A stretch of 64,000 nucleotides of DNA. Source: Antedon mediterranea. Lineage: Eukaryota > Animalia > Echinodermata. The stretch is from assembly GCF_964355755.1 (NCBI RefSeq), contig NC_092673.1, forward strand, positions 19,155,648 through 19,219,647. The letters are read 5' to 3'. This document shows, in pieces, positions 907 to 37,994 of the stretch (positions are counted from its first letter, which is position 1; the number at the start of each line of letters is the position of its first letter). The translations under genes were made by a program, and so were the position numbers. The notes under the pieces are model-generated. The model did not search any database. It had not been told where the DNA came from and worked only from the letters and a program-made list of their open reading frames with translations.

Positions 907-2672
907 CTTGTTCTGATCGATGCTTTCGTTTAATTTTCTTTGGGGATTTTTTATCACCTAAATGTGGATAAATTTGTAATACATTCAATGATACAAACAG
1001 GCCTATGTTTAAAGTAATTATTAATTAATAATTATAAAATCTCTTTTGCAAAAAATACATGTTAAAACAGATATGATAACAGTGTTCTTAAGGCCAATTT
1101 ACACAGACAAGCGGTAACGGTACAGTAAGTGGAAAACCATGTAGCTTGTCCATATAGAATCTGTATCTATCCTGAGTGGAAACCGCCCGTCCGTGTTGTG
1201 TGTAAATGGTCATAAAGAGTATCATAGATTCTATATTTTTTATTACCGTTACCGCTTGTCTGTGTAAATCGGCCTTAAAGCTGATAAAACTATTTATGTG
1301 TCCATAGATTTCCTTTGGGTATTTGTTGAGTTGTGATACAACAATATTGTTTAAATAATTGTGAGCAGTTCATTTTTTTTCATTATTGCCTACAGAACAT
1401 AGTGTTTATGAAATATAATAACATAATTTTTTGGTGATTGAGTAAAGGGTGCCTGAAATTCCTGATTTTAATTTCAAATATCAAAAATGTTTAAAAACGT
1501 AAAATTAACTTTTATATACAGTATTGCTTTTAAAAATAAATTTTAAAATTTGTATCGAATATAATTGAATAAATTAGAATTGTTGTACTGTACTGAAGTA
1601 AATAATTTTTGTTTAAAATAATTTGAGATTCTAATACTGAATAGTTCATAACAGTTTGTGTGTATTGATATATTACTATCTACATCATTACCAAAATAAA
1701 CATAACATACCTGGATTTGAACTTGCTGTCTCACCTTTAACAAAAAAAAAACCAATATTTCAATAAATGCTAGACAAATTACAGATTCTTCCTGGTAACA
1801 CTATAGCTATACTAGTGCAAAAGGATCAATGCTTATTTAAAAACGACAACAACATGAACTTTCAATTGGGAACAGTTAGCATATATATACTTACAAAACA
1901 CTTTCACTGGAGGAATATCATTTGACTCTTGTGAGAGTAAAAAGTTTGCCTTTAGAAGATTTGTTGATGTATTATTTCTGAAAAAATTAAATGTCCTTGA
2001 TGGGCTTTCACTCCATAGGTATTCAGCAGTGATAATCTAAAAATAAGAATATTTTTAGAAAGAAAAAGTACATATTACAGCTCGAAAGCAGAAAAGTATA
2101 AATAGTATGTTACCTAAATTATTGCTATTTTATTGTACTTGGTAGTTTTAGTGGCAATCAATCTTTGATCATACACTCATGAACAAGGTATGGATTCGAA
2201 GATAAGCCGTACAATTTAGACCAGATAGCGAGTTTGTCAAATGTTGCTTACAGAACAGTAGACACTTTGGCAATTGTGGGAAAGAAACAAAGAAAGACCG
2301 TTTTGTTTGTAAAGCAGAATCAAATCAGTCGTAGCTGACTGGATAACTACTGTAGGAGATCAATTGGATATAGCGGGAGATATTTTTCATTTATCTTTTA
2401 AACTACAGTATTAGTTTTACTGCAAGCATCTGTTTAATACATATTCTTGAGCCTCAAAAGCTTATACAAATATTATGATATCACAAATTGTGAAAAAACG
2501 TTTTTAGATTTAATTTAATAAAACAGAATGGACATACTTCTTTTTCATCTTCTACTTGCCATTCTTGGTTTGGAATCGCAACACTGATTCTAATGTCTTT
2601 ATACAAAGAAAGAATATTGTCAGGTGGTTGTAAAAGTTGCTCACCACATTGTTCGTGCTCTTTTTGTATCTT
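907..2672 (-). CDS. Module 2 UPA-like exons (2538-2672, 1895-2036), 24-nt micro-exon (1711-1734) and basic exon (907-957, GDKKSPKKIKRKHRSEQ)
   Basis: The 135- and 142-nt exons have the same lengths and phases as in module 1; canonical borders. Confidence 0.75.
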
Positions 2673-5600
2673 CTGAAATACATAAAATATAAAATAAAAG
2701 CACAAAATGAACTAGGCACTTTATTTTACATTTACACAATTTAAGCACCGAATGTGCCCTTTCTACATAATCACATTGTTCGTGCTCTTTTTGTATCTTC
2801 TGAAATACATAAAATACAAAATAAAAGCACAAAATGAACTAGGCACTTTATTTTACATTTACACAATTTAAGCACCGAATGTTCCCTTTCTACATAATCA
2901 TAACTGAAGCACAAATGTCAGAATGGCAGTGCGATAACAAAATTTCTATGAAGTTATGATTACCATCCATCCATTTTGTCCAGGTAAACATGTCGGTATG
3001 ATGCATTATCAAATGTAGAAAATTGTGGAATGTTTATAATTTAAAAATCTATGAGATTGTTTTTTCTTTTTCAATTGAAGCATTATGCCATTTTAAATTA
3101 ACTTCACAAACTTTGATATTTACTTAAGTTAAAACTGTTATCTACCAATACATCATCTCCAAATATAAATAAAAATACATTATCAATCAGTTGATCTCAC
3201 TTAAAATATATTAAAAAAAAAAAAATTGTCAACTATACTAAAAATATAAAATTATAATCATTTAAATACAAAATAATCCAAAATTAATAATTACCCTTTG
3301 TTTTCCAGGGTTCCAAAGTCTTAATCGAAGTTGATAATTATTTTCAAGGCTCTTTCCAAACACTCCACACTTTAATCTTTTCTTAGCATGAATAAAATTT
3401 CTTACATGACCCTCAAGTGCAAAGAGAGAAAAATGATTTATATTGATACAACATCGACCATTGTTTAAAGTGAAATTAATGTCCTTTTCATCACTTTCTA
3501 ATGCTATTTTTCTCCATTTATCGTGAAAGTGATCTTTAACAAGTAAAGTAAATTCCCAATTCTCTTCATTTACAGCATTGTGTGGAAATGACAGTAAACA
3601 TTGCTTGTTGAAGATGGTGCCTTCTGGTCCACATTTAACAATAGGCGATATTATTGATTCATGAGGTTGAGATATAGGCATGTCTATTTTCTTCAAAACA
3701 TTTTCTAGTGATATGTTAAATTTCTTTCCTTCTTCGATTGCTCCAGGTTGTATCTCCAACTTTATGTCTTCATCTTTAAGATGGAGAGTTTTGCCTTTAG
3801 AGCTCACAATTAACTTCATTTGATCTGCAGAATGAAAATGACATTACTTTTAAGATTTATTGTCCCCAAAAATATAAAAAATGAAGATTAATAAAATCAT
3901 ACTTTGAATATAGGCTAGGCAATCTAGCATTTTGAGTGAAACTAATTGCAATTAAAAAAATGACAGCCTTTAACCTCGACCCCATTTCTCAATGTTTGCA
4001 TAAACAATGTAACTAAAATGTCCCTAGAGACTATGTTTTGCTATCAATGACTCAGATACAGGTTTCCAATAGCCAGCATAGGACAACTTTGTAATTCCTA
4101 AAATCATACCTTTGTCACACACCTCAAAAGTATGCAAAATAGTAGTACAATTGTTAGTACAGAGGTGTGATGCTCAAATTTTGATCTCTTCATCATATGT
4201 GGTCATTTAAAAAAGAAAAATCTTTGTTTGCAATTTGTTTCACTTTGGGCTGTTTTTTTAGCTAGATTCCCTAGCCTAATAGGTCATTATGCAGTTTTAA
4301 TAATGTTATTCACACCCGTAGAAAAAAAAAACCAACACAAATAATAATTGATGATAATATAATACAAAAATATTTTTTTAGGGGACAATACACCTGTAAT
4401 ATTTGTTATAATAGCAATTGCTATAATCCTGTTCATAACAAAAATGTTCAATAGCTAGGCATACTATCATACTTTCACTGATCTCTAGTTTAAAAAGAAC
4501 ACATCTTCATTTTGATACTTTTCACTAAAAATGTCTATTTTTAACAGGCATTTCTTTAAACATGGCACATCTTCACAAATAATGTTGTGAATTAATTGTT
4601 CAGCACAAAATCTATATCATCAAGTTTTATCTTTTCCATCTATTTCAATACAGTGTATGTTTTCAAACTTTTACAGATCTAACTTACTTTATTTCCTTTT
4701 GCAAACACAGAGTAAATACAGTATAGCATACCTGGATTTGAACTTGATGTCTCAAAATCACCTGCAACAAATAAAATATACAATATTTCAACATATTCTA
4801 AGAAACTACAAATTATATATGGTAGGATACATGCTACGCCAAAGCAAGATAACATTTTGATTGCTATTGTAAAGGCAACAATGTACTTTTTTTTATTTTA
4901 TGAATAACAAATAATATTATTATATATTATAAATGTGATATAAATGCTACTTAAATTGTTTGCTGCAGGTTAAACACTTACAAGACACGGTAACTGGAGG
5001 AATATCATATGGCCCTTGTGAGAGTAAAAAGTTTGCTATTAGAAGATTTGTTGATGAATCATTTCTAGTAAAAATAAATGTTTTTGATGGGCTTTTACAC
5101 CATATGTTTTCAGCAAAGATGATCTAAAAAAAAAAGAATAGATATATGTTACAGGTACTGCACTTCTTGGAACAGAACATTTCCAAATAATGTATTTAAC
5201 AGGTATTTCTACATTGGGAAAATATTAATATTTATTACATTTACCTAAACACCATCTCTTTGATAGTAATGTGTAATCAATCAAAAGATTGCTCCAGATA
5301 TTACAATAGGGAAAGGGTTCTTTTACTTTTAGTGGTATGACATTTTAAATTGGATCAAGAAAATAACATCTACTGTAACATCTTAATTTAAGAGACATTA
5401 ACTCGTGAACATGGTAATGGTAATGTCAGCATATAAAAGTATCTAAGTGAGTAGTTAGTATTATCATTTTTACAGTTACAAACTGAACTCATCTAATAGC
5501 ACTATGAGATGAGAGTGCATACCTATACTAACAATTATTATAACTAGATGGTACACTCGCTTAGGTCGTGCCCACAGATGGTTCTCGAATACACAGTAAT

Positions 5601-8600
5601 TTTTTTTTAAATGTACGTACCGCAGGAGTGGACTATAATAGTTATTGTTGTTTACAGAAACGAATAAATAGACACGATAATTTATGTATAGTAACTAAAA
5701 TCAGCACACTGGGAATTACTCCCGAAAGAGAAACTTGTCACAAAATGTACTATGCTATTTCAATCGACTATGACAGTGACCGTTTTAACAAAGTATTAAA
5801 TCGCAAATGTGTTAACTGTACCAAGTGGTATATTATTTATAGGCCTATAAAACATGAAAACGAAACGTGTGTAACATTAGAGTTGAGGGATGGGGAAGAG
5901 GATATGGGCACAAAGAACGAAATATTTTTTCTGACAACTGTCAGTAATAAAGTATATTTGTATATTGTGCGTTTATATATCTAACAGTAGGGCCTACTCA
6001 CACTCACAGTAATACGTTTATTTATACATGTGTTTATATATCTAACGGTACCCACACTAATAGTAAAAAAATTGCGATTCAAATGGCAACCAAAAATGGT
6101 TAATACGTATTTACAGTTTGTTTGTTTGTTTCATTTATTTATTTTCCACACATTTGAACAAAAGGAACAGAAATATGAACTATAAAAAAAGAAAAAAGAA
6201 GACAATGTGTGAAAGGAGATCAAAATACGGTAAGTAAAAATTACTTTAAGCATTGACCACCTGAACAGTTGTCGACATGACAAGAAAACTAATAAATCTA
6301 AAAATGTAATGTCCAAGTATTGCAATACTACAGTATATCTATATAGGTTTTAGGTTAATTCTCTAAGGGCCAATAAATTTATCTACAGCTGGTTATTAAA
6401 TCTATCAAAATAGTATTTTTTAAAGAAAATCGGCCCGTCTTCAACATTATGATGTGTACTCGAGCTGTACAACCAGTTTTCAGCTATTAAAAACAATTAT
6501 CGTAGGAGATAGGAAATGCGAAGCATCCTCGTATTATTGTGTGCTGGTATTTTTCAAGAAAGACATCGATTAGACAGTGTATACCACGATCTGAAAACAC
6601 CACTATTTGTGGGCAAATCGTTGAACCTAAATTCGTTTTAATTGTCAATAACTAATTATCTAACTCAATTTAATTAGTTACATCAGGTTTTTAAAATCAG
6701 TACCAGAAGTACGAACCAACTTTAAATACCATCGAGTAAACATTCTAGAAGTAACACACGATTTACCGAACTTTGCCCTTACGTAAATTTATATAGATTA
6801 TAATGTATAGATTTTCCCCCCCAGAAATTTGATAATAGAATTTTGATTGTTTAATCTTTTCCCATCTACTCTAAACATGTGAAATTGTGATTGGATGAGA
6901 TTATTATCCCTTATTAATTATTATTATTAATAATTATATTTTTGCTGAAATACGTTTTTCTGGTTTTAATTCTCTTATAAATTTTCTCTTCTTTACCATT
7001 ACACATTTATTTTCTCTCCTCCTATTTAAAAAAAAACTACAATGAAATACTACGGTTCATTTTACAGAGCAATTATCAGAAGAACGCAACTGAATGGGTA
7101 GAAAAACCTGAAATAGTGGGGAAGGGGAAAAATGGTATCAACTGCATGCAAACATCTGTTTACTGAATTATTGATTTGTTAATGATTACACATTTTTTTT
7201 TAAACAAAATAAATGATCATACTTCTTTTTCATTCTCTACTTGCCATTCCTGGTTTGGTATCTCAACACTAATTTCCATTGAGTTATACAAGCACAGTAT
7301 ATTTTCAGGTGGTTGTAAAAGCTGCTCGCCAAATTGTAGCTGCTCTTTTTGTATCTTCTAAAATACAATGAAAAACAAACACAAGATGAACCAATCAAAT
7401 GTTATAATTTTTAAATCTAAAAATGTGATTGTTTTCCTTTTATACTTTTCAAAATGTTTTAACCAATTGAAGCCAAGATAAATTATCTTTACAGAGTTAA
7501 CATTGTTATCTACAAAAATAGGTTCTATAAAATACATTATCAACCAGTCAAAAAGTAACAGCAACTTATCTCCCTTTTCCTAGTTAAAAGAATTGTCAAT
7601 ATTTAATATACAAATGAATACTACATTTTGAAATTTAAAAAAAAATCAAAAAAAAAAAAAAAAATCATAATCTGATTCAAGTACATTTCTATAAACAAAT
7701 TACAAATTAATAATTACCCTTTCTTTTCCCGGGTTCCAAAGTCTTAATCGAAGTCGATAATTATTTTCAAGCCTTTTTCCAAATACTCCAAACTTTATTT
7801 TTTTCTTAGCATAACCAAAATTTGTGTTAATTTTACCCTTAAGCGCACAACAAGTGAATGAAATAAATTGTACAAAACATTGACCATTTCTTAAAGTATA
7901 TATCTGATTTTCATCACTTTCCAACAGTATTTGTTTCCATTTATCTTCAATGCGATCTTTAACAAGTAAAGTAAATTCCCAATTCTCTTCATTTACAGCA
8001 TTGTGTGGAAATGACAATAAACAGGGCTTGTTGAAGCTGGTGCCTTCTGGTCCACATTTTACAATAGGTGATATAATTGTTTCATGATGATGACGATATA
8101 CAGGCATTTCTATTTCAATGTTTTCAAGTGATATGTTAACTGACTTCCCTTCTTCAATTGCTCCAGAATATATCTGCAACTTGATGTCCTCCTCCTTAAG
8201 ATGAAGAGTTCCCCCTGTAGAGTCCACAATTAACTCTATTCGATCTGCAGAATGAAACATTACTTTAATTGTGTTTGTTGCAATTGTTATAATCTCCTTC
8301 ATTATACAATTATACTTTCTTCCATCACAAACTTACAATGTTAGCTCTCTTTAGAGTATAACTTCTTAACAAAAATAGTACCAAATCATTTTATTGTCAA
8401 GATTATATTAACAGTACAGTAAGTTAAATACAGCTTATATTGGAACATTAAAAGTACACTAGCAGAAAAATGTATATACAGCAATGTAAGATTGTCTATT
8501 TTCCTCAATTCATTTATTTCAACTTGAATTGCACAGTGTTAGTTCTATTTAATTTTATAACAAAAATAGTTTTTCATGTTTTTAATATTATTGGTTGTGG

Positions 8601-14600: not shown

Positions 14601-17600
14601 AAGTAAAGCCTCCTATCAAAAGCCCCTTGAGGTTTATTGAAGGTCCCTTTCATCTTAAAATCATCATCATCATGATTAAAATCTCTTTATTTTTGTTATG
14701 TGTACTGTTTTGATGTATTGAATAAAGAGATTGATTTGATTTGAAAAATGATTTATTTAATATTTTTATTTCAAAGGAATTTTAAAGTTTGCGTTTTTGT
14801 GTTATTTTTATCGTATTAATAGCAAAATAATTTACATCTTGCAACATATCACAACTTCCATGTATACTACTATCCCACTGAATTATTTAATCTATAATAA
14901 ACCTGTGAATGATATATCATAAATGTTAATTTTCTTTATCTGGACATTCTTCTTCACTTGATGAGAAATCAAATCTTTATCGTTTGCAATGAAACTAGTT
15001 GATCCTAAAATTTCAATAATTAAAACTTCAATTACCTTCTAAGAAGTTTAAAATTTCAGTTTTTCTTTGCTCCTCTATCCACCTGTTACTTTCTAAAAGA
15101 GAGACAAGTGTATTTCCATCCTATTAAAAAAATGGGTTTAGTTATTAGTAGTTTTGAGAAATTATTGATATACAATATAACACACTTTAATTGCGCATCA
15201 CATACATACAGTATTATGTCATGGCTCAAACATTTACCATCTAGAGATTGGATGAAAGAGCATCACGTGATAACACGTAGATTTACTATTTTTAACATTG
15301 GTTGTAAATTAGGACGTGAATAGAAATTAATATTTGCTAATAAATGACATCAACTTGTACAGTGCGCCACCTATAACTCCTGTATCCAAACCAAAACTTA
15401 AGCGCTGCCGTTTATAGTCTACCGCCTTCAACATTGAAAGATGGAGGAGAGAGAGAAAGAGATAAAAGTTTAATAAAAGTTTACTTTGGAACAGTAGGTA
15501 GATGTGTTAAAATGTTTGAGCCATAATATAAAACAACTAGAAAGCCACTCCGAGAGTGCATACCTCCGCCTACTGTAAAATTCTCCTACATAAGATTTCT
15601 CCGGTAAAAAAAAAAAAATATGTATATTTGTGTGTGTCTTAATGCTGTTTGTGATTTAGGCTAATTTCACTACAAGCATGTGTATGCGAGTTTGGTGTAA
15701 TGGTTATGTAACAAGCCTTTGAATTAACAATAGCTTCAGTTGACTAACAATAGAACAGCAACACGAAAATCAAACGAGTGAATTTGAAAAGAAAATGGGT
15801 TTTTTAAACTACTGGCATAAAAAAACGTGCACATTAAATCAAATTATGTTTTAAAATTACAAATCACGAATTATAACTCTTGCCTCTTGTACAAAAATGA
15901 AGTTTTTTGGACAAGTAGTTCTCGAGAAAATGCAATTTCAGTATACTTGTTACTTTAAGACTGCTCGCCGGCTTTTGAAAAATGTTGTCCTATCTTTTAA
16001 CACTAGCAGGTTTAAAAAAGTATACTAAAAAGTGGTCCAGAATTGGGACAATGGTCCCAAAATTTAATGGAATGGTCCTTGACTACATATCTATCTGTAT
16101 ATTCATTTTGGTAAAGATCTTGTAATTACATTTTGAGTAATCCTGCTAACAAACAAACACACGCTACCGATTACATATACCTCCTTGGCGGAGGTAAACA
16201 AATAGTTTTACTATAAACTTTCAAAGCAAATAATATTTGGATACTATCCAGAAACAAATGAAATATCCCTGTATAATCCCTGTACATTACCTTCTTTGCA
16301 ATGTTGCTGGTGTATAATACTGACAACAGACATTATGTGAAATTGGGTTTTTTTGGTCAACCCAAACCACAGCAACAATTACTGCTAAATAATGTGGTAA
16401 ATAATCATAAATGTCGACTATTGATAAATGAAAACAAAATATAATATCTTACCATGGATCAAATGTAGTATAGTGTCATTAAAATCTACTTACTGTACAA
16501 TATCAATCACAAAATTTGAACATTAATAATTTAATACATATTTTATAAAATTGTACAAACAAATGTTTAGATGTTAAACATAATGTATGAGGCCAATAAG
16601 CAGTTAAATGAATTTACATATAAATTTAGGTAATGGGAAATTTCAGTAAATTAAGTGCAACTTCTAGAATTTTTACTCAATGGTAGAGAAAGTTGGTACA
16701 TCCTTTCAGTACTGATTTTTAACACCCAATGAAACCAATATCATAATTAAGATAAGTTAGATATTAACGATAACAAATTTAGTTTAAACCATTTGCCTCA
16801 ATGAAAATCATATCATATCATGAAGCCTGATACCATCCCATCATCAAATGTACCAAGACAGGAATTTGGTGAACAATACCATGCAATAAACAAAATTAAG
16901 GTAATTCTCAGGATGACAATTATATTTGACTACATAAATTCCATCATATCTGTATTCATTTGCTTTGTGTACAGTGCAATTTTCAGTTATTTACCAAAGT
17001 TCATGTATTCAAGAAACATCTATGAGCACTTACTAGTATATTATATTTTAACAAGAAATCATTTTTCCAAAAAAGTCATAAGATAAGAGATGGAACTTTT
17101 CTTAAAAGCATTCAGTTTGAAAAGAATAATTTCATATTACCTTTCTTTTTAAATTGCATTACTCAAACAATTTAGATTTTGAAAACTAACAAAACATTGT
17201 GTACATTTCTCTTCATTTTGTGGCAAAATGTTTGCACAAAAAGATCCTAGGTTGGAAAAAGATCTCCAGATGTAGTTTAAGGCCATGTTTATAATTAGCT
17301 GGATAGAATGACAGAAGCATTTTTTTAAGGTAAGGGAGGGAACAGGTTATTAATTAATAATTATTTTTTATTAAAATCAGATTCTATTAATTTTTTTAAC
17401 ATAAACATTTTTAGTTGTTTAGTAGTTGTCGCATTTTATTTCATATTTACAATTAATTAGACCATTGTCAATAATTGTTAATTAATGACTGAATATATAA
17501 AAAAAAATAGATTTTTTTGTTCATTAAGAAAATTAAAGATTTATGTTATATGATAGGTAACTGTAAACTTTAAATCAGTTATCATAAATCATATATAACT

Positions 17601-23600: not shown

Positions 23601-26600
23601 ATGTAAACATTAATAAAATACATATTTCATAAAATTGTACAAACAAATGTTTAGATGTTAACAATATGAGACCAATAAGCAGTTTAATGAATTTACATAT
23701 AAATTTAGGTAATGGGAAATTTCAGTAAATTAGGTGCAACTTCTAGAATTTATACTCAATGGTAGAGAAAGTTTGTACATACTTCCGGTACTGATTTTTA
23801 ACACCTAATGAAAATCAGTGTACTATAAATGTACATAAATACAAAAAAACAAACACAAATACAAAAAAATTGCACAAAATTGCCCAAGAATACATGGTTT
23901 GATCGTCAATGCATAACAACAACAAATTATTATTCGTAGCATTCTTAATAAATATAGAAAATACAAAACTAACACCCTATTAAATGAATATCTGTTAAAG
24001 AAAAGGAGTTATAAAAAATTAATAAAATTTAAAAAAAAATAAACATAAAAATTCATCACAACAAAAATTAATCAGGTTAATAAAGGAACATAACAGTACA
24101 AAATTTTGGAAAAACCTTAAATCCAAACGACAACAAAATGTGACAAACATTACACTTAAAAAATGGCATGATTACTTCAAAACAATGTTCCAAAATCAAA
24201 CAAATAATATACAAGAAATCAATATAGAAGACGATAACGATAACAATTGCGAACATAACGATTGTTACAATGAAGAAATCAGCCGGGAAGAGGTAATTTA
24301 TGCAATTAAAGTTAACATTGACAAAAGTAAAATAATAGTATTTTTAAAAAATGGAAAACTTAAGAACTACGAAAAGTGGAATTAACTTGGTAAAGAAATT
24401 GAAATAGTAAAATCTCTTAATTATCTTGGAGTCACTTTCGATTGTTCAGGAATTTGGGAAAAGGCCAGAGAACAAAATAATACACAGGCTAATAAAGCAC
24501 TTTTCTCACTCAAAAATATAGTATATCAGAAATATGGACATTTACTAGTGAATATTTGGAACTACTTATTTGATGTTAAAATAAACCCAATTATACTGTA
24601 TGGTAGTGAAATATTGGGAAAACTAAACAACAACAAAATTGATGATATTCAAAATAATTTCTGTAGATATGTTTTAGGGGTCGGGAAATCAGCCACAAAT
24701 GTTTCAATTAGAGGCGAATGTAGACGATTCTCTTTATCAATCGAAGGTGTACTCAATGTTATCCGTTATTGGGTAAGACTAGTAAATATGAACGAGGACA
24801 GATATGTGAAGAAATGTTATAAATCTCAACTTCATAAAGCGCAAAATAATAGTAATTGTTGGGTAAGCGATGTAAAACATATGTTATGCTCTATTGGTCA
24901 TGGAAACATATGGTTTTCACAAAATAATGTCCTTGATAAATTTCATATAATTAATGAAATAAAAGAAAGGCTAACCGATATGGAACGCCAATCCTTTCAT
25001 GAAAGCATAAATATTTCTTCAAAATTAAGATATTATAAAATGTTCAAAAACAATTTCGGAGTAGATGGATACTTACTACAGACCCTTGATACTAGATATA
25101 AGCGAGCTTTAAGTCAACTAAGACTGGGCACACTTCAACTAGAGGTAGAAAAGGGAATATGGAAAAGAATAGAGCGCAACAATAGGTTATGTAAAATATG
25201 TGATATAAATGAAGTTGAAGGTGAATATCATTTTGTTACAGTTTGCTCTCGTTACAAGGAAATCAGAAAAAAATTTATACCTTCTTTATTTTTTGAAAAT
25301 CCAAATACTTTTAAATTCTGCCGTTTAATTTCATCACAGGATCCAATAATTATTGATAATCTATCTAAATATATTTATCATGCTTATAAGTTAAGATATA
25401 TGTTTTGCTTAGAGAACGAAATTAATTAATTCATTTATCTTGTGACCATAAATTGCTTTATTTTTCAATGTAATTATTATTTTATTAATTACTAGGGGCC
25501 AGAGGCCTAAAGTAAATAAAGTCAGGCGATAAGCCTGAATGAATAAATGAATGAATGAATGAATATTGACGATCAAAACAAATTTATCATTTGCCTTGAT
25601 GAAGATCAAAAAATGTTTGCACAAAAAGATCCTAGGTTGGAAAAGGATCTCCAGATGTAGTTTAAGGCGATGTTTATAATTAGCTAGATAGACTGACAGA
25701 AGAATTTTTTTTGTAAGATAAAGGAAGGAGCACATTATTAATTAATAATCATTATTAATTAATAATCATTTTTTATTAAAATCAGATTCTATTAATTTTT
25801 GTTTAGTAGTTGTCCCATTTTATTTCATATTTACAATTAATTAGACCATTATCAATAATTGTTAATTAATAACTGAATATATAAAAAAAATAGATTTTAT
25901 TGTTCATTAAGAAAATTAAAGATTTATGTTATATGATAGGTAACTGTACACTTTAAATCAGATCATAAATCATATATAACTATTTAGTTATTTTTTTATT
26001 TGGTTTGTTTTAATAAAATTTGATTTTTGTTAATGTGCTTACTTTTTTCTCTCATTAAATGGTCTATTTCAGCAGATCTATATAATGTTAGCTTATTACA
26101 CTAGCAAATCCCTGTACATTTACCTTATTTTGCAATGCTACTGGTGCCCCATGCTGAATGAGACACGTCAGTATTTCTAAGGTAGGTGTTGTATATTCAT
26201 TCCTCAGATATGAATGTAATAGAGTGTCACCATACTGGAAAGGAATCATAATGAAGTTTATAAATACTGACAATAGAAATTATGTAAAATTGGTTTTCTG
26301 TTGTTAATACAAACAACAACAATTACTGCTAAATAATGTGATAAAATCCTAATTATCATTATTGATAAATGAAAACAAAATATAATATCTTACCATGGAT
26401 CAGATGTAGTGATTGTTAGCCTATTACTTAATGTAAGTAATCATTAAAATCTACTTACTGTACAATATCAATCACAAAATTTGAATATTAATAAAATACA
26501 TATTTTATAAAATTGTACAAACAAATGTTTAGATGTTAAACATAATGTATGAGGCCAATAAGCAGTTAAATGAATTTACATATAAATTTAGGTAATGGGA

Positions 26601-29600
26601 AATTTCAGTAAATTAAGTGCAACTTCTAGAATTTTTACTCAATGGTAGAGAAAGTTGGTACATCCTTTTAGTACTGATTTTTAACACCCAATGAAACCAA
26701 TGTCATAATTAAGCTAATTTAGATATTAACGATAACAAATTTAGTTTAAACAATATTGCCTCAATGAAAATCATATCATATCATGAAGACTAATATCATG
26801 CCATCATCAAATATACCAAGACAGGAATTTGGTGAACAATACCATGCAATAAACAAAATTAAGGTAATTCTCAGGATGACAATTATATTTGAATACATAA
26901 ATTCTAACATATCTGTATTCATTTGCTTTGTGTACAGTGCAATTTTCAGTTATTTACCAAAGTTCATGTATTCAAGAAGCATCTGTGAGCACTTACTAGT
27001 ATATTATATTTTAACGAGAATTAATTTTTTCAACAAAGTCATAAGATAAAAGACGGAACTTTTCTTAAAAGCATTCAGTTTGAAAAGAATAATTTCATAT
27101 TACCTTTCTTTTTTAAATTGCATTACTCAAACAATTTAGATTTTGAAAACTAACAAAACATTGTGTACATTTCTCTTCATTTTGTGGCAAATGTTTGCAC
27201 AAAAAGATCCTAGGTTGGAAAAGGATTTCTTTAAGGCCATGTTCATAATTAGCTGGATAGACTGACAGAAGCATTTTTTGTAAGGTAAGGGAGGGAGCAG
27301 GTTTTTAATTAATAATCATTTTTTATTAAAATCAGATTCTATTAATTTTTTTAACATAAACATTTTTAGTTGTTTACTAGTTGTCCCATTCTATTTCATA
27401 TTTACAATTAATTAGACCATTGTCAATAACTGTTAATTAATAACTGAATATATATAAAAAAATAGATTTTTTTGTTCATTAAGAAAATTAAAGATTGATG
27501 TTATGTGATAGGTAACTGTACACTTTAAATCAGTTATCATAAATCATATATAACTATTTGGTTTGTTTTAATCAAATTTGATTTTTGTTAATGTGCTTAC
27601 TTTTTTCTCTCATTAAATGGTTTACTTCAGCAGATCTATAGAAAGTTAGCTAATTACACTAGCAAATCCCTGTACATTTACCTTATTTTGCAATGCTAAT
27701 GGTGCCCCATGCTGAATGAGACACGTCACTATTTCTAAGGTAGGTGCAGTACTCCTCAAATATGAATGTAATGGAGTGTCACCATACTGGAAAGGAATCA
27801 TAATCATGAATGTTTATAAATACTGACAACAGACATTATGTGAAATTGGTTTTTTTTTTGTTAATATTGTACAAACAACAATTATTGCTAAATAATGTGA
27901 TAAAATTCTAATTATCATTATTGATAAATGAAAACAAAATATAATATATTACCATGGATCAGATGTAGTAATTGTTAGCCCATTACTTAATGTAAGTAAT
28001 CATTAAAATCTACTTACTGTACAATATCAATCACAAAATTTGAACATTAATAAAATACATATTTCATAAAATTGTACAAACAAATGTTTAGATGTTAACA
28101 ATATGAGACCAATAAGCAGTTAAATGAATTTATATATAAATTTAGGTAATGGGAAATTTCAGTAAATTAAGTGCAACTTCTAGAATTTATACTCAATGGT
28201 AGAGAAAGTTGGTACATACTTTCGGTACTGATTTTTAACACCCAATGAAACCAATATCATTTAAGTTAAGTTAGATATTAACGATAACAAATTTAGTTTA
28301 AACCATTTGCCTCAATGAAAATCATATCATATCATGAAGCCTGATACCATCCCATCATCAAATGTACCAAGACAGGAATTTGGTGAACAATACCATGTAA
28401 TAAACAAAATGAAGGTAATTCTCAGGATGACAATTATATTTGACTACATAAATTCCATCATATCTGTATTCATTTGCTTTTTGTACAGTGCAATTTTCAG
28501 TTATTTACCAAAGTTTATGTATTCAAAAAGCATCTGTGAGCACTTACTAGTATATTATATTTTAACAAGAAATAATTTTTCCAAAAAAGTCATAAGATAA
28601 AGAGACGGAACTTTTCTTAAAAGCATTCAGTTTGAAAAGAATAATTTCATATTACCTTTCTTTTTAAATTGCATTACTCAAACAATTTAGATTTTGAAAA
28701 CTAACAAAACATTGTGTACATTTCTCTTCATTTTGTGGCAAAATGTTTGCACAAAAAGATCCTAGGTTGGAAAAGGATCTCCAGATGTAGTTTAAGGCCA
28801 TGTTTATAATTAGCTGGATAGAATGACAGAAGCATTTTTTTAAGGTAAGGGAGGGAGCAGGTTATTAATTAATAATTATTTTTTATTAAAATCAGATTCT
28901 ATTAATTTTTTTAACATAAACATTTTTAGTTGTTTAGTAGTTGTCGCATTTTATTTCATATTTACAATTAATTAGACCATTGTCAATAATTGTTAATTAA
29001 TGACTGAATATATAAAAAAAAATAGATTTTTTTGTTCATTAAGAAAATTAAAGATTTATGTTATATGATAGGTAACTGTACACTTTAAATCAGTTATCAT
29101 AAATCATATATAACTATTTAGTTAATTTTTTATTTGGTTTGTTTTAATAAAATTTGATTTTTGTTAATGTGCTTACTTTTTTCTCTCATTAAATGGTTTA
29201 CTTCAGCAGATCTATAGAATGTTAGCCTATTACACTAGCAAATCCCTGTACATTTACCTTATTTTGCAATGCTACTGGTGCCCCATGCTGAATGAGACAC
29301 GTCACTATTTCTAAGGTAGGTGTATATCCACTCCACAGATATGAATGTAATGGAGTGTTACCATGCTGGAAGGGAATCATAATGAAGTTTATAAATACTG
29401 ACAACAGACATTATGTGAAATTGGGTTTTTTGACAATACAAACAACAACAATTAATGCTAAATAAAGTGGTAAATAATCATAATTAACATTATTAATAAA
29501 TGAGTAGAACAAAATAGAATGGTTTACCACAGCATATCTATAGAATGTTAGCCTATTACACTAGCAAATCCCTGTACATTACCATATTTTGCAATGCTAC

Positions 29601-32600
29601 TGGTGCCCCATGCTGAATGAGACACGTCACTATTTCTAAGGTAGGTTGTGTATATTCAATCCTCAGATATGAATGTAATGGAGTGTCACCATACTGGAAA
29701 GGAAAGCATTTTTTTGTAAGGTAAGAGAGGGAGCAGGTTATTAATTAATAATTATTTGTTATTAAAATCAGATTCTATTAATTTTGTGTAACATAAACCT
29801 TTTTTATTTGTTATTTTATTATTAATCAATGTAGTCCCATTTTATTTCATCTTTACAATTAATTAGACCATTGTCAATCATTGTTATCTTTACAGCTACA
29901 TATGAGCAATTTATATTTGTTTTACGGTCAAAAATAGTTAAACAAAATTATACCGATTCACCTGAATATAAAAAATTACAAGTACTGATTTTTAACACCC
30001 AATGAAACCAATATCATAATTAAGTTAAGTTAGATATTAACGATAACAAATTTAATTTAAACCATTTGCCTTGATGAAAATCATATCATATCATGAAGCC
30101 TGATACCATCCCATCATCAAATGTACCAAGACAGGAATTTGGTGAACAATACCATGTAATAAACAAAATGAAGGTAATTCTCAGGATGACAATTATATTT
30201 GACTACATAAATTCCAACATATCTGTATTTATTTGCTTTGTGTACAGTGCAACTTAGACAATTTTCAGTTATTTACTGAAGTTTATTTATTCGAGAACCA
30301 TTAATTACCAGTATATCAAATTTTAACTGGCAACTTTAATAGAATCATTTTTTCCAAAAAGTCATAAGATACAGTAAGATACGGCACTGTTTGAAAAGAA
30401 TAATTTCATATTAAATTTCTTTTTGAAATTGCATTGCTCAAACATTTTTACTAAACTAAACATTTTTCTTCCTTTTGTGCAAAATGTTTGTTTGGAAAAG
30501 GATCTCTTTAAACCCATCTGTATGTGATAAGACTGACAGAAGTATTTTGTTGTAAAGTAAGTAAAGGGCAGGAGCAGGTTATTAACAATTAATAATCCTT
30601 TTTTATTGAAATCAGATTCTATTTATAACATAAACATGTTTTAATTTGTTATTTTATTAATAGTCAATGTAGTTGTCCCATTTTATTTCGTATTTACAAT
30701 TAATTAGACCATTGTCAATCGTTATCTTTGAAGTACATACAGTAATAATGAGCACTTTATATTTGTTTTACGGTCATAAAAATGTAAACAACATTGTAGG
30801 TTTCTATTAGGCGTCATGTCCAAATGTTTCAAACTGACAAAGCGTGTTAATCGCGTTTTCTTTTGTTTTAGCGTTAGCGTGAAAATTCTAAAATCGTCAG
30901 ACCGTTTGGAAAATGGACAATATGCATAGCTTGTATAGTTCCGCCCACTAACATGCTTGACTGATTTTTACGAATCGTTTAACGTCGTTGCGAATCGCTT
31001 TGTGAACGTCGTTTAACGATGAGTCATCACACACAGGCCCAAACAATTCGTTTCAGTTTGTAGCTGAATTGTATTCCAGGGGTGCCGATCTCAAACATCA
31101 TTCTAAAATGTTTACAAGTTCGTAACCTCAATAAATAATTTAATATTAATAATAAACAGGGGCCTGGAATGTTTTTCTTTTACATAGCCAACTGAAAATA
31201 TCGTTAGGAAGTTCATACGATGAACTAAGCACCTGAGACAATAGCAACACGATGTGCCACGTAGTCTCACTTCTAAATGCATTAGCGAACGTCTACAGTA
31301 GCCGATCGATAAAAAAAAAGGTCTTCTAAAAATAGCAGCAGTGAATGCTCGGCCGACCGTCGGTGTTCGCGCGCTCATAGATTGCAGGCCGATAACATAA
31401 GTTAAACAAGTACCTAGATGTTGGTCACGCGATATCCTCTTTCTCCTCCTGTTCACAGCGCTCACATGTTTTTACTTCAAATTCTGCCGGTCGGTAATCT
31501 TATTTAGATCGTTGAAAAGATGACTGATCATTAATTTAATTCATTTAATGTTTGATTCTATTTTTGTGCTTTATTTTATTTTGTTTATCTTTATAAATTT
31601 GATTTATTTTAATTTAATTTTTATTGTTATATATGTCTCGTCATATTGTAATTTTGTGAGGGTCCCTAATGATCAGCTTCGGCTGGATGGACCACCCTCG
31701 TAAAATATTCTTGAAAATAAATATATAAATCATTGGCTATTTTTCCGTTGCACAAGGGCCTAGTTGTATTAATAATAATAATTATTATACTTATTAAACA
31801 AGGAATATATTGATTTTGTATTTATTTTGTGAAGGCTTTTGAACTTTGTCGTCGCTGTATTTTTAAATTTGTTAACTAAGTTAGAATTTACTAGCATAAT
31901 ATAATACTGTAAAACCAGACACTTTTGTGACATAAAACTTTCGCAAATTTGAAAAGTACAAGTAAATAACTGTATACTGTAAAAAAAAGATCGCGTTAAT
32001 CCATTGTGGATGCGATCTTCGTATATATCGAACATCCGTCGATCCAGAAACGATGCCCACAAAAAAGATGGTAAAACATTCATTCTAAATATGGTATCAA
32101 AACGTTCAAGTCGCTCAAAAAGAATGCCGACAGAAGACCGTAATTAATACAGACCTGGGTTTTTTGGCATGAAACGCGATACTACTCGATGTTTTACCTC
32201 AACCTCTAACATGATATTTTTTAACTCAGTACGTCCATTAGAGGGTGGTGGATGCTGTGCTGACGACAATAAAACAGTAATTAAGATCGTGTACCTGCAT
32301 TTCCTCTATTTATATCTAAACTGTTCCCAGACTCCGATCCACTCGCATGTTTTTCCCACTCCAAATTCTGGTCTGGCCTTTCTCTTTACACAATATATTA
32401 ATCATTTAAAAGGCCTATGACTGGTAAATCTTAACATGGAATATATATTTATTTTGCTTATATTTTGTTGGTGTTCTAGCCTAGGTGTTGTTATTTTTAT
32501 AATTCGCTAACCCAAGGTAGGATTAAATAATTTATAGTGTAGGCCGCCGACCTGAACTCTCTCTGTGTGAGCTGACTGAGGTCCACGGGCCCGATGTCGT

Positions 32601-35600: not shown

Positions 35601-37836
35601 TTTTTAGCCTAATGTGGTTAATCAGTGAATGCAGGTTATACTTCCATCATCAGTGTGTATTTATATTATTATTTTTAGCCTAATATGGTTAATCAGTACA
35701 TGCAGGTTATACCTCCATCATCAGTGTGTATTTATATTATTATTTTTAGCCTAATGTTGTTAATCAGTGCATGCAGGTTATACCCCTATTATCAGTGTGT
35801 ATTTATATTATTATTTTTAGCCTAATGTGGTTAATCAGTGCATGCAGGTTATACCCCCATCATCAGTGTGTATTTATATTATTATTTTTAGCCTAATGTG
35901 GTTAATCAGTACATGCAGGTTATACCTCCATCATCAGTGTGTATTTATATTATTATTTTTAGCCTAATGTGGTTAATCAGTACATGCAGGTTATCCCCAT
36001 CATCAGTGTGTATTTATATTATTATTTTTAGCCTAATGTGGTTAAAGCCTGTTTTCCTGTCGACGTTGAAATACGTTGAGTTGCGTTGAGTTTAAAATCG
36101 TTAAAGTTGAAAATAAAATAACGATGACGATGATCGAGTCGGACCGCTAATATTTACACATTTTTACGCGATCGTTTATAGTTTCTTGGTTCTCTCGAGC
36201 GTTGCTGGGACACGCGGACGTGAAGTGTTGCAAAACTAAAGCCGGCCACGCGCAGCCGGGACCGCGTGAAAATTGAAAAAGTTACGGGTTTTGATGCTTA
36301 AACCCAGCCTAGGACATACTTTCGTTGATATCTTAATCTAGGATTCTAGGCTTACACTAAAGACAAACATTAAATTTAATTGGTTTAATATTATAATTTA
36401 ATTTAACTTACACTTGTTTTTTTTAAATATCAGACCTTAAAAGTGTACAAAAAAGGTGAAAAACATCGTCGCGTTGTAAACATTCAAGAATTGTCAGCGC
36501 GTACCTATTTTGTCACAAACTGCAATGACGTAATTTGTGGACCATTTGATTGGTCAGTTTTAACGATCGTAACGATCGTAATCGTTAAAGTTGAACCAAG
36601 TTCAACTTTAACGATTTAAGATTTTAACGATTTTCAACGTTAATTTTTACCCCCTTTTCCTGTTAAATCGTTGAATATGTCAACTCAACGCAACTCAACG
36701 TAACTTAACGTCGACAGGAAAACAGGCTTAATCAGTACATGCAGATTATCCCCATCATCAGTGTGTATTTATATTATTATTTTTAGCCTAATGTTGTTAA
36801 TCAGTACATGCAGGTTATACCCCCATCATCAGTGTGTATTTATATTATTATATTATTATTTTTAGCCTAATGTGGTTAATCAGTGCATGCAGGTTATACC
36901 TCCATCATCAGTGTGTATTTATATTATTATTTTTAGCCTAATGTGGTTAATCAGTACATGCAGGTTATACCTCCATCATCAGTGTGTATTTATATTATTA
37001 TTTTTAGCCTAATGTGGTTAATCAGTACATGCAGGTTATACCTCCATCATCAGTGTGTATTTATATTATTATTTTTAGCCTAATGTGGTTAATCAGTGCA
37101 TGCAGGTTATACCCCTATCATCAGTGTGTATTTATATTATTATTTTTAGCCTAATGTTGTTAATCAGTACATGCAGGTTATACCTCCATCATCAGTGTGT
37201 ATTTATATTATTATTTTTAGCCTAATGTGGTTAATCAGAACATGCAGGTTATACCCCCATCATCAGTGTGTATTTATATTATTATTTTTAGCCTAATGTG
37301 GTTAATCAGTGCATGCAGGTCTTACCAACATCATTAGTGTGATATTGCAAAATAATTGTAATTCATTATATAAAAAAATGTTATAATAAATAATAAAGAA
37401 AATTACAATCTCTATAATTTTAAACTTTAATTAAATTTCTTCTTTGATAATATTATAAAAATAATGTACATCTTGTTTTAAATACCTCATTGATAGATTT
37501 CACAAGATCTGGTTGCGTCTTACAAATTTGTTTAATTGTTTGCAAATCACTCCTCCTGTACAACAAAGCTTTTTCTAATTTGTTCCTGTTAAAATGTAAG
37601 AAATAATGAATTATTACACTATTTTATGAAAATGATGATTTATGGAAATAATCAATATCATCATTATATTTGATGAGAATGAGCCCTTTAATTGTAATAT
37701 TTATAATTTCATAATCTTTTAAGAAAGTTTTAAAGTATTGCTAACTATTCAAACATTTTAATTTGTTTTAACATTTACATATTGGAGCTGGTTATTTTTG
37801 TTGGATTTGAAATAAAAAACAAACGTACCTTTCCAT
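907..37836 (-). CDS. Multi-exon gene: ankyrin-repeat array plus 2x (ZU5-UPA-like) protein, about 990 aa in the exons found; 3' end uncertain
   Basis: 22 exons with canonical AG/GT borders and mutually compatible phases join into one stop-free frame (2968 nt): 37829-37836, 37486-37585, 29583-29693, 29258-29365, 27682-27786, 26124-26234, 23246-23356, 22900-23022, 21443-21550, 17742-17852, 15036-15120, 12606-12698, 9152-9229, 7718-8244, 7223-7357, 4982-5123, 4732-4761, 3295-3824, 2538-2672, 1895-2036, 1711-1734, 907-957. Confidence 0.8.
1092..1274. mobile_element. MITE with 31-bp TIRs, TTAA flanks (Harbinger- or Kolobok-type)
   Basis: ggccaatttacacagacaagcggtaacggta versus its reverse complement at 1244-1274, one mismatch. 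Confidence 0.8.
2645..2898. repeat. 127-bp direct tandem duplication spanning a splice acceptor
   Basis: 2645-2771 and 2772-2898 are nearly identical. Confidence 0.9.
3295..3824 (-). CDS. ZU5 domain exon, module 2, with HFS motif
   Basis: ISPIVKCGPEGTIFNKQCLLSFPH...ININHFSLFAL; same exon borders as 7718-8244. Confidence 0.9.
3853..4395. mobile_element. Kolobok-like non-autonomous element containing a nested Academ-like MITE (3911-4278)
   Basis: Outer ends attgtcccc / ggggacaat, with a related copy at about 48790-49020. Inner TIRs taggctaggcaatctagc / gctagattccctagccta with an ATA target duplication. Confidence 0.65.
4732..7357 (-). CDS. Module 1 UPA-like exons (7223-7357, 4982-5123) and a 30-nt micro-exon (4732-4761)
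   Basis: Open, phase-compatible exons (KIQKEQLQFGEQLLQPPEN..., IIFAENIWCKSPSKTF..., CDFETSSSNP), each with a paralog in module 2 (same length for the two larger exons). The E..GGxLLxxP-like motif fits the UPA region that follows ZU5. Confidence 0.78.
5544..6797 (-). mobile_element. Non-autonomous Helitron-like element
   Basis: Minus strand a|TCTATATAAA...CTAG|t with an imperfect hairpin before CTAG; about 400 bp recur at 11045-11452. Confidence 0.6.
7718..8244 (-). CDS. ZU5 domain exon, module 1 (plus start of the UPA-like region)
   Basis: GGTL...I..GAI...ISPIVKCGPEGTSFNKPCLLSFPH matches the ZU5 pattern of UNC5/ankyrin/PIDD proteins; ctgcag / gtaatt borders. Confidence 0.9.
9152..9229 (-). 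CDS. Linker exon L2 (DLPSLASEHFEKLMVEEQKTKLKPVI)
   Basis: 78 nt, phase 1-1, tttttag / gtgagt borders. Confidence 0.7.
9598..10267. mobile_element. Tc1/mariner-pogo-like MITE
   Basis: Inverted ends tactgacgcgggtataagccca / tgggcttatacccacgtcagta; repeated internal gggcttataccc motifs; right tip incomplete. Confidence 0.6.
11455..12295 (-). mobile_element. Internally deleted copy of the Helentron/HINE-like family at 51289-54382
   Basis: Reverse-complement match to about 53430-54252 and to the 5' end ttaggttatatgcattatcatgc. Confidence 0.75.
12606..12698 (-). CDS. Linker exon L1 (DLTSTVDEQFQTQFQKHTSDKQKTKLLKPES)
   Basis: 93 nt, phase 1-1, tttttag / gtgagt borders; paralog of 9152-9229. Confidence 0.7.
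15036..15120 (-). CDS. Ankyrin C-cap-like exon (DGNTLVSLLESNRWIEEQRKTEILNFLE)
   Basis: ttttaatag acceptor, G|gtaatt donor, phase 0 to 1; begins DGNT like the repeats. Confidence 0.75.
15534..16198 (-). mobile_element. Helentron-associated (HINE/DINE-1-like) non-autonomous element
   Basis: Sub-terminal inverted repeat tacctccgcc / ggcggaggta, palindrome acctccttggcggaggt, hairpin cactc-cga-gagtg next to aactag. Confidence 0.65.
16271..16345 (-). pseudogene. Decayed ninth ankyrin exon (pseudo-exon)
   Basis: Both flanks of the repeat unit are present (atccctgtacattacc and atactgacaacagacattatgtg), but only about 23 nt of the exon 3' end remain and the normal acceptor is deleted. Confidence 0.7.
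17742..17852 (-). CDS. Ankyrin repeat exon A8 (DGNTPLHSYLWSGYTVPTLEIVTCLIQHGAPVALQNK)
   Basis: 111 nt, phase 0-0, ctttccag / gtaatg borders. Confidence 0.88.
18315..20895 (+). mobile_element. 5'-truncated, frameshifted non-LTR retrotransposon (LINE ORF2; RTE-X/CR1-group-like), copy 1
   Basis: RT motifs KAPGIDG, NYRGVSL, FIDLKRAFDSI, QGSPLS, YADD; C-terminal CxxC...H...C motif; (TGAA)n tail at 20848-20895; no endonuclease domain. Confidence 0.92.
21443..21550 (-). CDS. Ankyrin repeat exon A7 (DGNTILHDYLRNEYTPTLEIVTCLIQHGAPVALQNK)
   Basis: 108 nt, phase 0-0, ctttctag / gtaaat borders. Confidence 0.88.
22900..23022 (-). CDS. Ankyrin repeat exon A6 (DGNTPLHMYLWGGYTHRDTAPTLEIVTCLIQHGAPVAWQNK)
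   Basis: 123 nt, phase 0-0, in-frame loop insertion; inside ORF 22873..23064. Confidence 0.9.
23246..23356 (-). CDS. Ankyrin repeat exon A5 (YGNTPLHSYLRSGYTVPTLEIVTCLIQHGAPVALQNK)
   Basis: 111 nt, phase 0-0; inside ORF 23210..23395. Confidence 0.9.
23815..25565 (+). mobile_element. Copy 2 of the same LINE insertion, with an 813-bp internal deletion of the RT core
   Basis: Same 5' junction and 3' flank as copy 1; joins caattaaag (copy 1 position 18809) to ttaacattgac (19623); shorter TGAA tail. Confidence 0.92.
26124..26234 (-). CDS. Ankyrin repeat exon A4 (YGDTLLHSYLRNEYTTPTLEILTCLIQHGAPVALQNK)
   Basis: 111 nt, phase 0-0; inside ORF 26088..26273. Confidence 0.9.
27682..27786 (-). CDS. Ankyrin repeat exon A3 (YGDTPLHSYLRSTAPTLEIVTCLIQHGAPLALQNK)
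   Basis: 105 nt, phase 0-0, canonical borders; not in the ORF track. Confidence 0.88.
29258..29365 (-). CDS. Ankyrin repeat exon A2 (HGNTPLHSYLWSGYTPTLEIVTCLIQHGAPVALQNK)
   Basis: 108 nt, phase 0-0, canonical borders; inside ORF 29222..29404. Confidence 0.9.
29583..29693 (-). CDS. Ankyrin repeat exon A1 (YGDTPLHSYLRIEYTQPTLEIVTCLIQHGAPVALQNM)
   Basis: GxTPLH...LIQHGA ankyrin motif; ctttccag / gtaatg borders; 111 nt, phase 0-0. Confidence 0.88.
30810..32934. mobile_element. PIF/Harbinger-type element with probable decayed transposase remnants
   Basis: TIRs ggcgtcatgtccaaatgtttc / gaaacatttggacatgacgcc with a TTA target duplication. ORF 31112..31465 (SARTPTVGRAF...RRPF) loosely resembles the Harbinger R..VERAFG.LK.RF motif. 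Confidence 0.75.
34501..35349. mobile_element. hAT-like non-autonomous element inserted in the 71-bp array
   Basis: Imperfect TIRs caggcgcggattcaagg / tcctggatccgcccctg; caggtt duplicated on both sides; internal 40-bp repeat about 4 times at 34536-34706. Confidence 0.7.
36046..36728. mobile_element. PIF/Harbinger-type MITE inserted in the 71-bp array
   Basis: TIRs agcctgttttcctgtcgacgtt / aacgtcgacaggaaaacaggct, TAA target duplication. Confidence 0.85.
37486..37585 (-). CDS. Ankyrin N-cap-like exon (NKLEKALLYRRSDLQTIKQICKTQPDLVKSINE)
   Basis: ttttaacag acceptor, GAG|gtatt donor, phase 2 to 0; reads directly into YGDTPLH of the first repeat. Confidence 0.7.
37829..37836 (-). CDS. Putative start exon, coding part ATG GAA AG (M-E-R)
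   Basis: ATGGAAAG|gtacgt donor; phase 2 matches the next exon. Confidence 0.6.
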
Positions 37837-37994
37837 TTCAAAAATACAGTGTGTTCATTTAACAATTATTAATACGGATAGCTTCTAGTGTAAAAGTAAG
37901 CCTACACATTCTGTTCTGAAAATATGAAAGGTAAAACATAATTTCATCAGACAGAAACCTTTGCATTAAAGGCTACGACAATTCAATTGCACCG

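What the first reader, a model, noticed from the sequence alone, without database searches (positions are those of the whole stretch)
907..37836. Unusual architecture: ANK array + (ZU5-UPA) x2, a PIDD/FIIND-like sensor layout
Seen: a four-exon module (527/530, 135, 142 and 30/24 nt) is duplicated in tandem downstream of the ankyrin array. Established: canonical ankyrins are ANK-ZU5-ZU5-UPA-DD, PIDD1 is LRR-ZU5-ZU5-UPA-DD, UNC5 has ZU5-UPA-DD, and NLRP1/CARD8 use a single ZU5-UPA (FIIND). Two complete ZU5-UPA modules in series behind short variable ankyrin repeats match none of these. No death-fold domain is visible in the window, so the effector is either beyond position 1 or absent (candidate stop exon 614-753). 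Inference: a lineage-specific cytosolic sensor in which a variable repeat domain controls a ZU5-UPA signalling unit.
Basis: partly seen in the sequence, partly recalled or inferred. Interest (0 to 1): 0.8.

Follow-up and report, generated by a model that had tools for sequence, protein, structure and literature searches.

The report
Feather-star ankyrin–ZU5–DED self-cleaving sensor
A feather-star gene with eight variable ankyrin repeats, two ZU5-UPA modules and, by the database gene model, a caspase-8-type death-effector pair just outside the window; it is likely one protein that is predicted to cut itself like human PIDD1 or NLRP1 and likely acts as an intracellular immune or cell-death sensor.

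Summary
On the minus strand 22 GT-AG exons (37836 to 907) read in one open frame: eight one-exon ankyrin repeats with caps, two linker exons and two ZU5-UPA modules. A RefSeq model of Antedon mediterranea (XP_071947400.1) matches both modules letter for letter, skips 614-753 and ends in a tandem DED left of the window (fold match to caspase-8, Z 14.9). ZU5-2 ends in His-Phe-Ser, the PIDD1 self-cleavage motif; 40 of 51 related ZU5 domains have H-F-[S/T/C]. ZU5-1 has S-F-T, in register with the NLRP1 cut. Repeat variation sits on the ankyrin binding face. The ankyrin head is shared with crinoid ANK-Roc-COR-DED proteins, and the DED pair with crinoid DED-DED-NACHT-LRR receptors. One spliced run shows a module-1 splice of this copy and a linker-to-ZU5 splice in this copy or a close paralog; no ankyrin-to-linker splice was seen. 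Tandem ZU5-UPA also occurs in amphioxus and Anneissia. Verdict: a new domain combination of a known kind, likely a PIDD/NLRP1-like sensor signalling through DEDs. Cleavage and function are untested.

The parts
37829..37836 (-). First coding exon (ATG)
   Evidence: the same N-terminus begins paralogs XP_071948771, XP_071948777 and XP_071947615
37486..37585 (-). N-terminal capping repeat exon
   Evidence: first 36 aa are 72-86% identical to four Antedon ankyrin or ANK-Roco N-termini
29583..29693 (-). Ankyrin repeat exon 1 (phase 0-0)
29258..29365 (-). Ankyrin repeat exon 2
27682..27786 (-). Ankyrin repeat exon 3
26124..26234 (-). Ankyrin repeat exon 4
23246..23356 (-). Ankyrin repeat exon 5
22900..23022 (-). 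Ankyrin repeat exon 6 (longest loop, 10 aa)
21443..21550 (-). Ankyrin repeat exon 7
17742..17852 (-). Ankyrin repeat exon 8
16291..16319 (-). Remnant of a ninth ankyrin unit: only the last 29 nt of the exon and its donor remain
15036..15120 (-). C-terminal capping repeat exon (phase 0-1)
   Evidence: 90% identical to the cap of ANK-Roc model XP_071948802
12606..12698 (-). Linker exon A (phase 1-1)
   Evidence: found after the cap in XP_071948802 and before linker B and ZU5 in XP_071948765
9152..9229 (-). Linker exon B (phase 1-1)
   Evidence: a contig of spliced run X1 joins such an exon to a ZU5 exon start (this copy or a close paralog)
7718..8244 (-). Module 1 exon: ZU5-1 and start of UPA-1; S-F-T motif at 7853-7861
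   Evidence: splice to the next exon seen in X1
7223..7357 (-). Module 1 UPA exon
   Evidence: (135 of 135 letters identical in X1)
4982..5123 (-). Module 1 UPA exon
4732..4761 (-). Module 1 spacer exon
3295..3824 (-). Module 2 exon: ZU5-2 and start of UPA-2; H-F-S motif at 3427-3435
2538..2672 (-). Module 2 UPA exon
1895..2036 (-). Module 2 UPA exon
1711..1734 (-). Module 2 spacer exon
907..957 (-). Basic linker exon; in the RefSeq model it splices to the tandem-DED part left of position 1
614..753 (-).
   Evidence: Skipped by XP_071947400.1; no hit among 174 retrieved proteins

Best explanation
The exons likely form one crinoid gene for a cytosolic protein of about 1170 aa (ankyrin array, linker, two ZU5-UPA modules, tandem DED) that is predicted to cut itself at the His-Phe-Ser of ZU5-2 and likely works as an immune or cell-death sensor in the manner of PIDD1, NLRP1 and CARD8. 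Shown: open exon chain, domains and folds, motif position and conservation, variation on the ankyrin concave face. Inferred: the cut leaves a roughly 40 kDa UPA-DED-DED piece held on the N-terminal part; ligand binding by the repeats, or destruction of the N-terminal part, frees it; UPA clusters it and the DEDs seed a filament that recruits a DED caspase or a FADD-like adaptor. ZU5-1 (S-F-T) would be a slower second cut or an inactive spacer.
For: 22 exons in frame with canonical ends. RefSeq residues 20-592 are identical to the model, followed by a tail with DED hits. The AlphaFold model has mean pLDDT 84.5; it matches UNC5B ZU5-UPA (Z 26.5, rmsd 2.1, 272 aligned), CARD8 (Z 17.7), NLRP1 FIIND (Z 17.0) and caspase-8 tandem DED (Z 14.9, rmsd 3.0, 156 aligned). 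The motif lies in the loop before the last ZU5 strand, as described for CARD8 (PMC3210808). Human NLRP1 residue 1214 starts its alignment at residue 151, which puts T150 of S-F-T at Ser-1213. 40 of 51 aligned ZU5 domains have H-F-[S/T/C], the three nucleophiles named for self-processing in PMC9162469; UNC5B lacks the motif. Variable positions 1, 3, 8, 11 and 12 are concave-face positions in PMC8415598: 11 of 36 columns vary against 5 of 63 in the rest of the repeat (Fisher p 0.005), and all loop length changes keep the frame. The DED pair is 48-51% identical to the N-terminal DEDs of two NACHT-LRR proteins.
Against: No cleavage, ligand, partner or phenotype was tested. No ankyrin-to-linker splice of this copy was seen, and RefSeq starts at ZU5-1 without ankyrins. 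The DED tail rests on the RefSeq model alone. Variation in the first 12 codons does not exceed the flanking introns significantly (11 of 36 against 9 of 59, p 0.12), so diversifying selection is suggested, not shown. The closest solved fold is uncleaved UNC5B. None of 173 retrieved proteins holds both ankyrin and ZU5. Relative domain positions in the model are unsure (pTM 0.51).
Confidence: 0.5

Rival explanations
1. One gene, but an uncleaved fold-back switch like UNC5B or ankyrin-B: ZU5-UPA holds the DEDs shut and a partner bound by the repeats opens it.
For: Best fold matches are UNC5B (Z 26.5) and ankyrin-B (Z 20.1); PMC9162469 describes this autoinhibited supramodule. ZU5-1 lost the His and has the longer branch (0.30 against 0.14).
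Against: ZU5-2 keeps H-F-S, and the family swaps only among Ser, Thr and Cys at the nucleophile position. UNC5B has no such motif. The rival can also coexist with cleavage.
Confidence: 0.2
2. A cFLIP-like damper: the tandem DED lacks a caspase domain and caps or diverts the filaments of crinoid DED-NLRs and Roco-DED proteins instead of starting them.
For: A DED-pair profile's best PDB hits are cFLIP (E 0.003-0.02); Atlas hits include v-FLIP-like clusters. Many short DED-DED-only relatives exist.
Against: Caspase-8 DEDs score as well or better by another profile and by fold. A variable binding head and a release motif suit a trigger better (inference).
Confidence: 0.15
3. Two adjacent units in an unstable cluster: the ankyrin exons are the stranded front of an ANK-Roco gene, and the ZU5-UPA-DED gene is separate or a short-lived chimera.
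For: RefSeq omits the ankyrins. The nearest ankyrin relatives are ANK-Roc-COR proteins. The array holds a broken LINE and a decayed ninth unit.
Against: No Roc-COR sequence lies in the window. All eight exons are stop-free, and their four length classes are all multiples of three. Cap and linkers are internal exons whose phases lead straight into ZU5-1. Paralog models hold ANK-cap-linker A and linker A-linker B-ZU5.
Confidence: 0.13

Closest known systems
PIDD1 (LRR-ZU5-ZU5-UPA-DD)
   Same: Repeat head, two ZU5 domains, His-Phe-Ser at the end of ZU5, death-fold output (PMC9162469, section 6 read).
   Different: Ankyrin instead of LRR; each ZU5 has its own UPA; tandem DED instead of DD; only one of two sites keeps the His; lineage-specific family rather than a conserved single gene.
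NLRP1 / CARD8 (FIIND = ZU5-UPA, then CARD)
   Same: Same fold (Z 17.0-17.7) and the same register of the cut site; a UPA-death-fold fragment would be released (PMC3210808; PMC7794386 abstract).
   Different: 8-11% identity; no Pfam FIIND hit; no NACHT; DED pair instead of CARD; two modules.
UNC5 receptors and ankyrin-B (ZU5-UPA-DD, ANK-ZU5-ZU5-UPA-DD)
   Same: Closest ZU5-UPA sequence and fold (E 1e-42; Z 26.5).
   Different: No Ig, TSP or transmembrane part seen; UNC5B lacks the motif; the repeats are recent near-identical copies of crinoid Roco type; output is DED.
Crinoid ANK-Roc-COR-DED-DED Roco proteins and DED-DED-NACHT-LRR NLRs (database models)
   Same: Same ankyrin type, caps and linker A; same DED-pair family.
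   Different: The switch here is ZU5-UPA, not a GTPase or NACHT ATPase.
[quoted passage not shown]
   Same: One repeat per exon, exon turnover and variable binding repeats in candidate immune receptors.
   Different: Brown alga, LRR or TPR repeats, independent origin; diversifying selection shown there, only suggested here.

Membership tests
PIDD1 orthologue | N-terminal LRRs | tested here: not met
   Upstream exons are ankyrin repeats
PIDD1 orthologue | ZU5-ZU5-UPA order | tested here: not met
   Order is ZU5-UPA-ZU5-UPA
PIDD1 orthologue | Single C-terminal death domain | tested here: not met
   Tail aligns over 156 residues with caspase-8 tandem DED
Self-cleaving ZU5-UPA proteins (PIDD1, NLRP1, CARD8 type) | ZU5-UPA fold followed by a death fold | tested here: met
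   the death fold rests on the RefSeq tail
Self-cleaving ZU5-UPA proteins (PIDD1, NLRP1, CARD8 type) | [H/S]-F-[S/T/C] in the loop before the last ZU5 strand | tested here: met
   H428-F429-S430 and S148-F149-T150 in RefSeq numbering
Self-cleaving ZU5-UPA proteins (PIDD1, NLRP1, CARD8 type) | Actual autoproteolysis and signalling by the released fragment | not testable with these tools
   Needs expression and mutagenesis
NLRP1 / CARD8 family | Pfam FIIND domain and C-terminal CARD | tested here: not met
   Pfam gives ZU5 and a weak DED, no FIIND or CARD; fold of the tail is tandem DED
Canonical ankyrins (ANK1-3) | Long conserved ankyrin array then ZU5-ZU5-UPA-DD | tested here: not met
   Eight near-identical repeats, different order and tail; ankyrin-1/2/3 score far below UNC5B
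UNC5 netrin receptors | Ig-Ig-TSP-TSP ectodomain and transmembrane helix (recalled) | tested here: not met
   Upstream exons encode ankyrin repeats and short hydrophilic linkers
Roco proteins | Roc-COR domain | tested here: not met
   No credible tblastn hit of three paralog Roc or Roc-COR regions in the window; none in the RefSeq model

The most novel reading that the evidence does not exclude
Crinoids run a plug-and-play intracellular immune system in which one hypervariable, one-exon-per-repeat ankyrin head and one DED-DED output are wired to three switches (NACHT, Roc-COR, self-cleaving ZU5-UPA). This gene would be an invertebrate NLRP1/CARD8-like release sensor that signals to a caspase-8-type protease, with two staged cuts and a binding surface diversified by exon gain, loss and skipping.
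Probability: 0.3. Interest if true: 0.8.

Novelty: new variant of a known kind. Interest (0 to 1): 0.58.

Why it matters
Echinoderm intracellular immunity is known mostly from gene counts. This locus gives a concrete, cheap test of whether the PIDD1/NLRP1 self-cleavage switch was coupled independently to a variable ankyrin sensor and a caspase-8-type output. It also shows sensor, switch and effector modules being exchanged between Roco, NLR and ZU5 genes in one genome, and that current annotation splits such genes. The theme of shuffled death-fold architectures in marine invertebrates is already in print (PMC8195603), which limits the surprise.

Tried and rejected
No whole genome is held for this window, so the sequence left of position 1 and a genome-wide paralog count were not checked. 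The run search listed no holder on record as RNA; X1 proved spliced only when laid. The first laying was crowded by repeats and showed no splice joint among the 15 joints listed. X1 had no cover over 8265-8335, where the RefSeq start lies; a gap in contigs is not evidence. Single-sequence AlphaFold failed (pLDDT 29.9) and was discarded. The joined protein with the ankyrins was not folded or scanned as a whole. Pfam gave no UPA hit on this gene's exons or RefSeq model. Exon 614-753 as the true end was rejected as the main form. Roc-COR or DED inside the window was rejected. A claim of positive selection was not made: pN/pS is about 2.2 in the first 12 codons but rests on few, non-independent changes. 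No complex prediction was sent. Three look-ups of earlier scan findings returned nothing.

Full report
Observation. The window is AT-rich animal DNA. On the minus strand, 22 exons from 37836 to 907 have canonical AG/GT ends and join in one frame without a stop. Pfam finds Ank on all eight exons (6 of 8 above the curated cut-off) and ZU5 on both long exons. The three long exon pairs of the modules are 81-83% identical. In a tree of 17 modules the two are sisters (98/97), so they doubled in place.

Identity and the missing end. The module-2 exon found a 100% identical protein, XP_071947400.1 of the feather star Antedon mediterranea, and eight Antedon paralogs. Its residues 20-592 equal model residues 418-990. 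It then skips 614-753 and adds 184 residues that are not in the window. That tail is a tandem DED. Pfam DED is weak (E 4e-4), family profiles hit caspase-8 (E about 1e-4) and cFLIP (E 0.003), the Atlas gives TM 0.79 to a caspase-10 cluster, and the AlphaFold model (73 sequences, pLDDT 84.5) aligns with caspase-8 DEDs at Z 14.9, rmsd 3.0 over 156 residues. UPA is supported by TM 0.86-0.87 to UNC5 UPA for module 1 and Z 26.5 to UNC5B for module 2. The tail rests on the RefSeq model; I could not read that DNA.

One gene or two. RefSeq starts at ZU5-1 with a Met from the intron and has no ankyrins. Run X1 is spliced RNA: a contig joins 7357 to 7718 across the GT-AG intron and is identical to that exon at 135 of 135 letters, while DNA run X5 shows no such joint. 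X1 depth in five bins fits exon-only cover of both modules. Another X1 contig covers linker exon B (78 of 79 letters alike), joins it to a ZU5 exon start (28 of the 30 letters shown alike) and carries 27 further non-intronic letters upstream. Paralog models hold ANK-cap-linker A (XP_071948802) and linker A-linker B-ZU5 (XP_071948765). No Roc-COR or DED lies in the window as another 3' end for the repeats. I put one gene at about 0.85. The ankyrin-to-linker splice of this copy was not seen.

The switch. ZU5-2 ends in H428-F429-S430 and ZU5-1 in S148-F149-T150 (RefSeq numbering), each in the loop before the last ZU5 strand. PIDD1 cuts itself at His-Phe-Ser, NLRP1 and CARD8 at Ser-Phe-Ser, and Ser, Cys or Thr serve as nucleophile (PMC9162469 section 6; PMC3210808 passages and section 6). 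Of 51 aligned ZU5 domains, 40 have H-F-[T 22, S 10, C 8]; 2 are cut off after H-F, 2 have no letters, 2 have Y-F-S, 1 is ZU5-1 and 4 differ (the set includes this gene and two near-duplicate pairs). UNC5B lacks the motif. The solved NLRP1 fragment aligns from residue 1214 to model residue 151, which places T150 at Ser-1213; only the ends of that alignment were shown. ZU5-1 has twice the branch length of ZU5-2, so it may be relaxed. A cut in ZU5-2 would give about 94 and 40 kDa.

The sensor. The repeats are copies of an exon-plus-intron unit of about 1.56 kb, 80-96% identical, with a ninth unit that has lost most of its exon. In the first 12 codons 11 of 36 columns vary, against 5 of 63 in the last 21 codons (p 0.005) and 9 of 59 in flanking intron (p 0.12). 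Loops between the helices are 4 to 10 residues and always in frame. Across 21 repeats from this gene and paralogs there are 19 different loops. The variable positions 1, 3, 8, 11 and 12 are on the concave, partner-binding face (PMC8415598 passages). This fits a diversified binding surface but does not prove selection.

Family context. The seven best ankyrin hits include six Antedon proteins, among them ANK-Roc-COR-DED-DED Roco proteins and ankyrin-only fragments. A search of 1.84 billion representatives gave 438 hits at E 0.001 or better; I analysed the best 150. Most are tandem-DED proteins, including DED-DED-NACHT-LRR receptors, Roc-COR-DED-DED and one Roc-COR-DED-DED-ZU5-UPA-DED-DED (40 were scanned with Pfam, 10 named). 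This gene's DED pair groups with those of two NLRs (48-51% identity) and apart from those of its nearest ZU5 paralogs (quick tree). So head, switch and tail have separate nearest relatives, and the ZU5-UPA module is phase 1-1, which allows such swaps. Tandem ZU5-UPA also occurs in Branchiostoma lanceolatum (without the motif) and partly in Anneissia japonica. None of 173 retrieved proteins holds both ankyrin and ZU5, but split annotation and my query choice weaken that.

Mechanism. Shown: exon chain, domains, folds, motif, variation, expression of module 1. Inferred: self-cleavage; release of UPA-DED-DED after ligand binding or loss of the N-terminal part; UPA-promoted clustering as reported for NLRP1 and CARD8 (PMC7794386, abstract); recruitment of a DED caspase. 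I give this 0.5, an uncleaved switch 0.2, a cFLIP-like damper 0.15 and separate genes 0.13.

Novelty. It fails membership of PIDD1, NLRP1/CARD8, ankyrin, UNC5 and Roco families but works most like the first two. Lineage-specific shuffling of DED, ankyrin, FIIND and UPA-ZU5 in marine invertebrates is described (PMC8195603 passages; its source-data supplements were not read and may list similar architectures), as are DED-NACHT receptors (PMC2575513 passages) and one-exon-per-repeat immune genes in brown algae (PMC3341825 abstract). Searches aimed at this combination listed no paper whose title or abstract start describes it; most listed papers were not opened, and the library lacks most subscription journals. 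Verdict: new variant of a known kind, interest 0.58.

Noticed in passing
window 18329-20741 and 24026-25430 (+): Broken LINE with a reverse transcriptase domain (Pfam RVT_1, E 3e-34) inside the ankyrin array, copied with an internal deletion as part of a block duplication.
   Followed up: partly
window 62712-63998 (+): MULE transposase frames running off the right end (Pfam MULE, E 6e-8).
   Followed up: no
window 33170-37346, 37991-38487, 43626-47011, 47913-48487, 49815-50346: Minisatellites of 71, 31, 89, 85 and 18 bp; the 71-bp array fills much of the intron between the N-cap and the first ankyrin exon and is interrupted by two insertions.
   Followed up: no
window 9597-10266: A 668-bp segment is skipped by contigs of DNA runs X2-X4, like a polymorphic insertion, though the contig may come from another copy.
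   Followed up: no
window 7824: Contigs of X1, X3, X4 and X5 read another base here, changing one codon in UPA-1; allele or assembly error.
   Followed up: no
protein P0020 (XP_071947615.1): Ankyrin head with two Roc-COR units in tandem and a hydrophobic C-terminal stretch: the same doubling of the switch module as here.
   Followed up: no
protein P0030 (XP_033103043.1): Anneissia NLR with several DED pairs in front of NACHT-LRR.
   Followed up: no
proteins P0002, P0005, P0009: ZU5-UPA paralogs with hydrophobic stretches that look like membrane anchors, so some family members may be membrane-bound.
   Followed up: no
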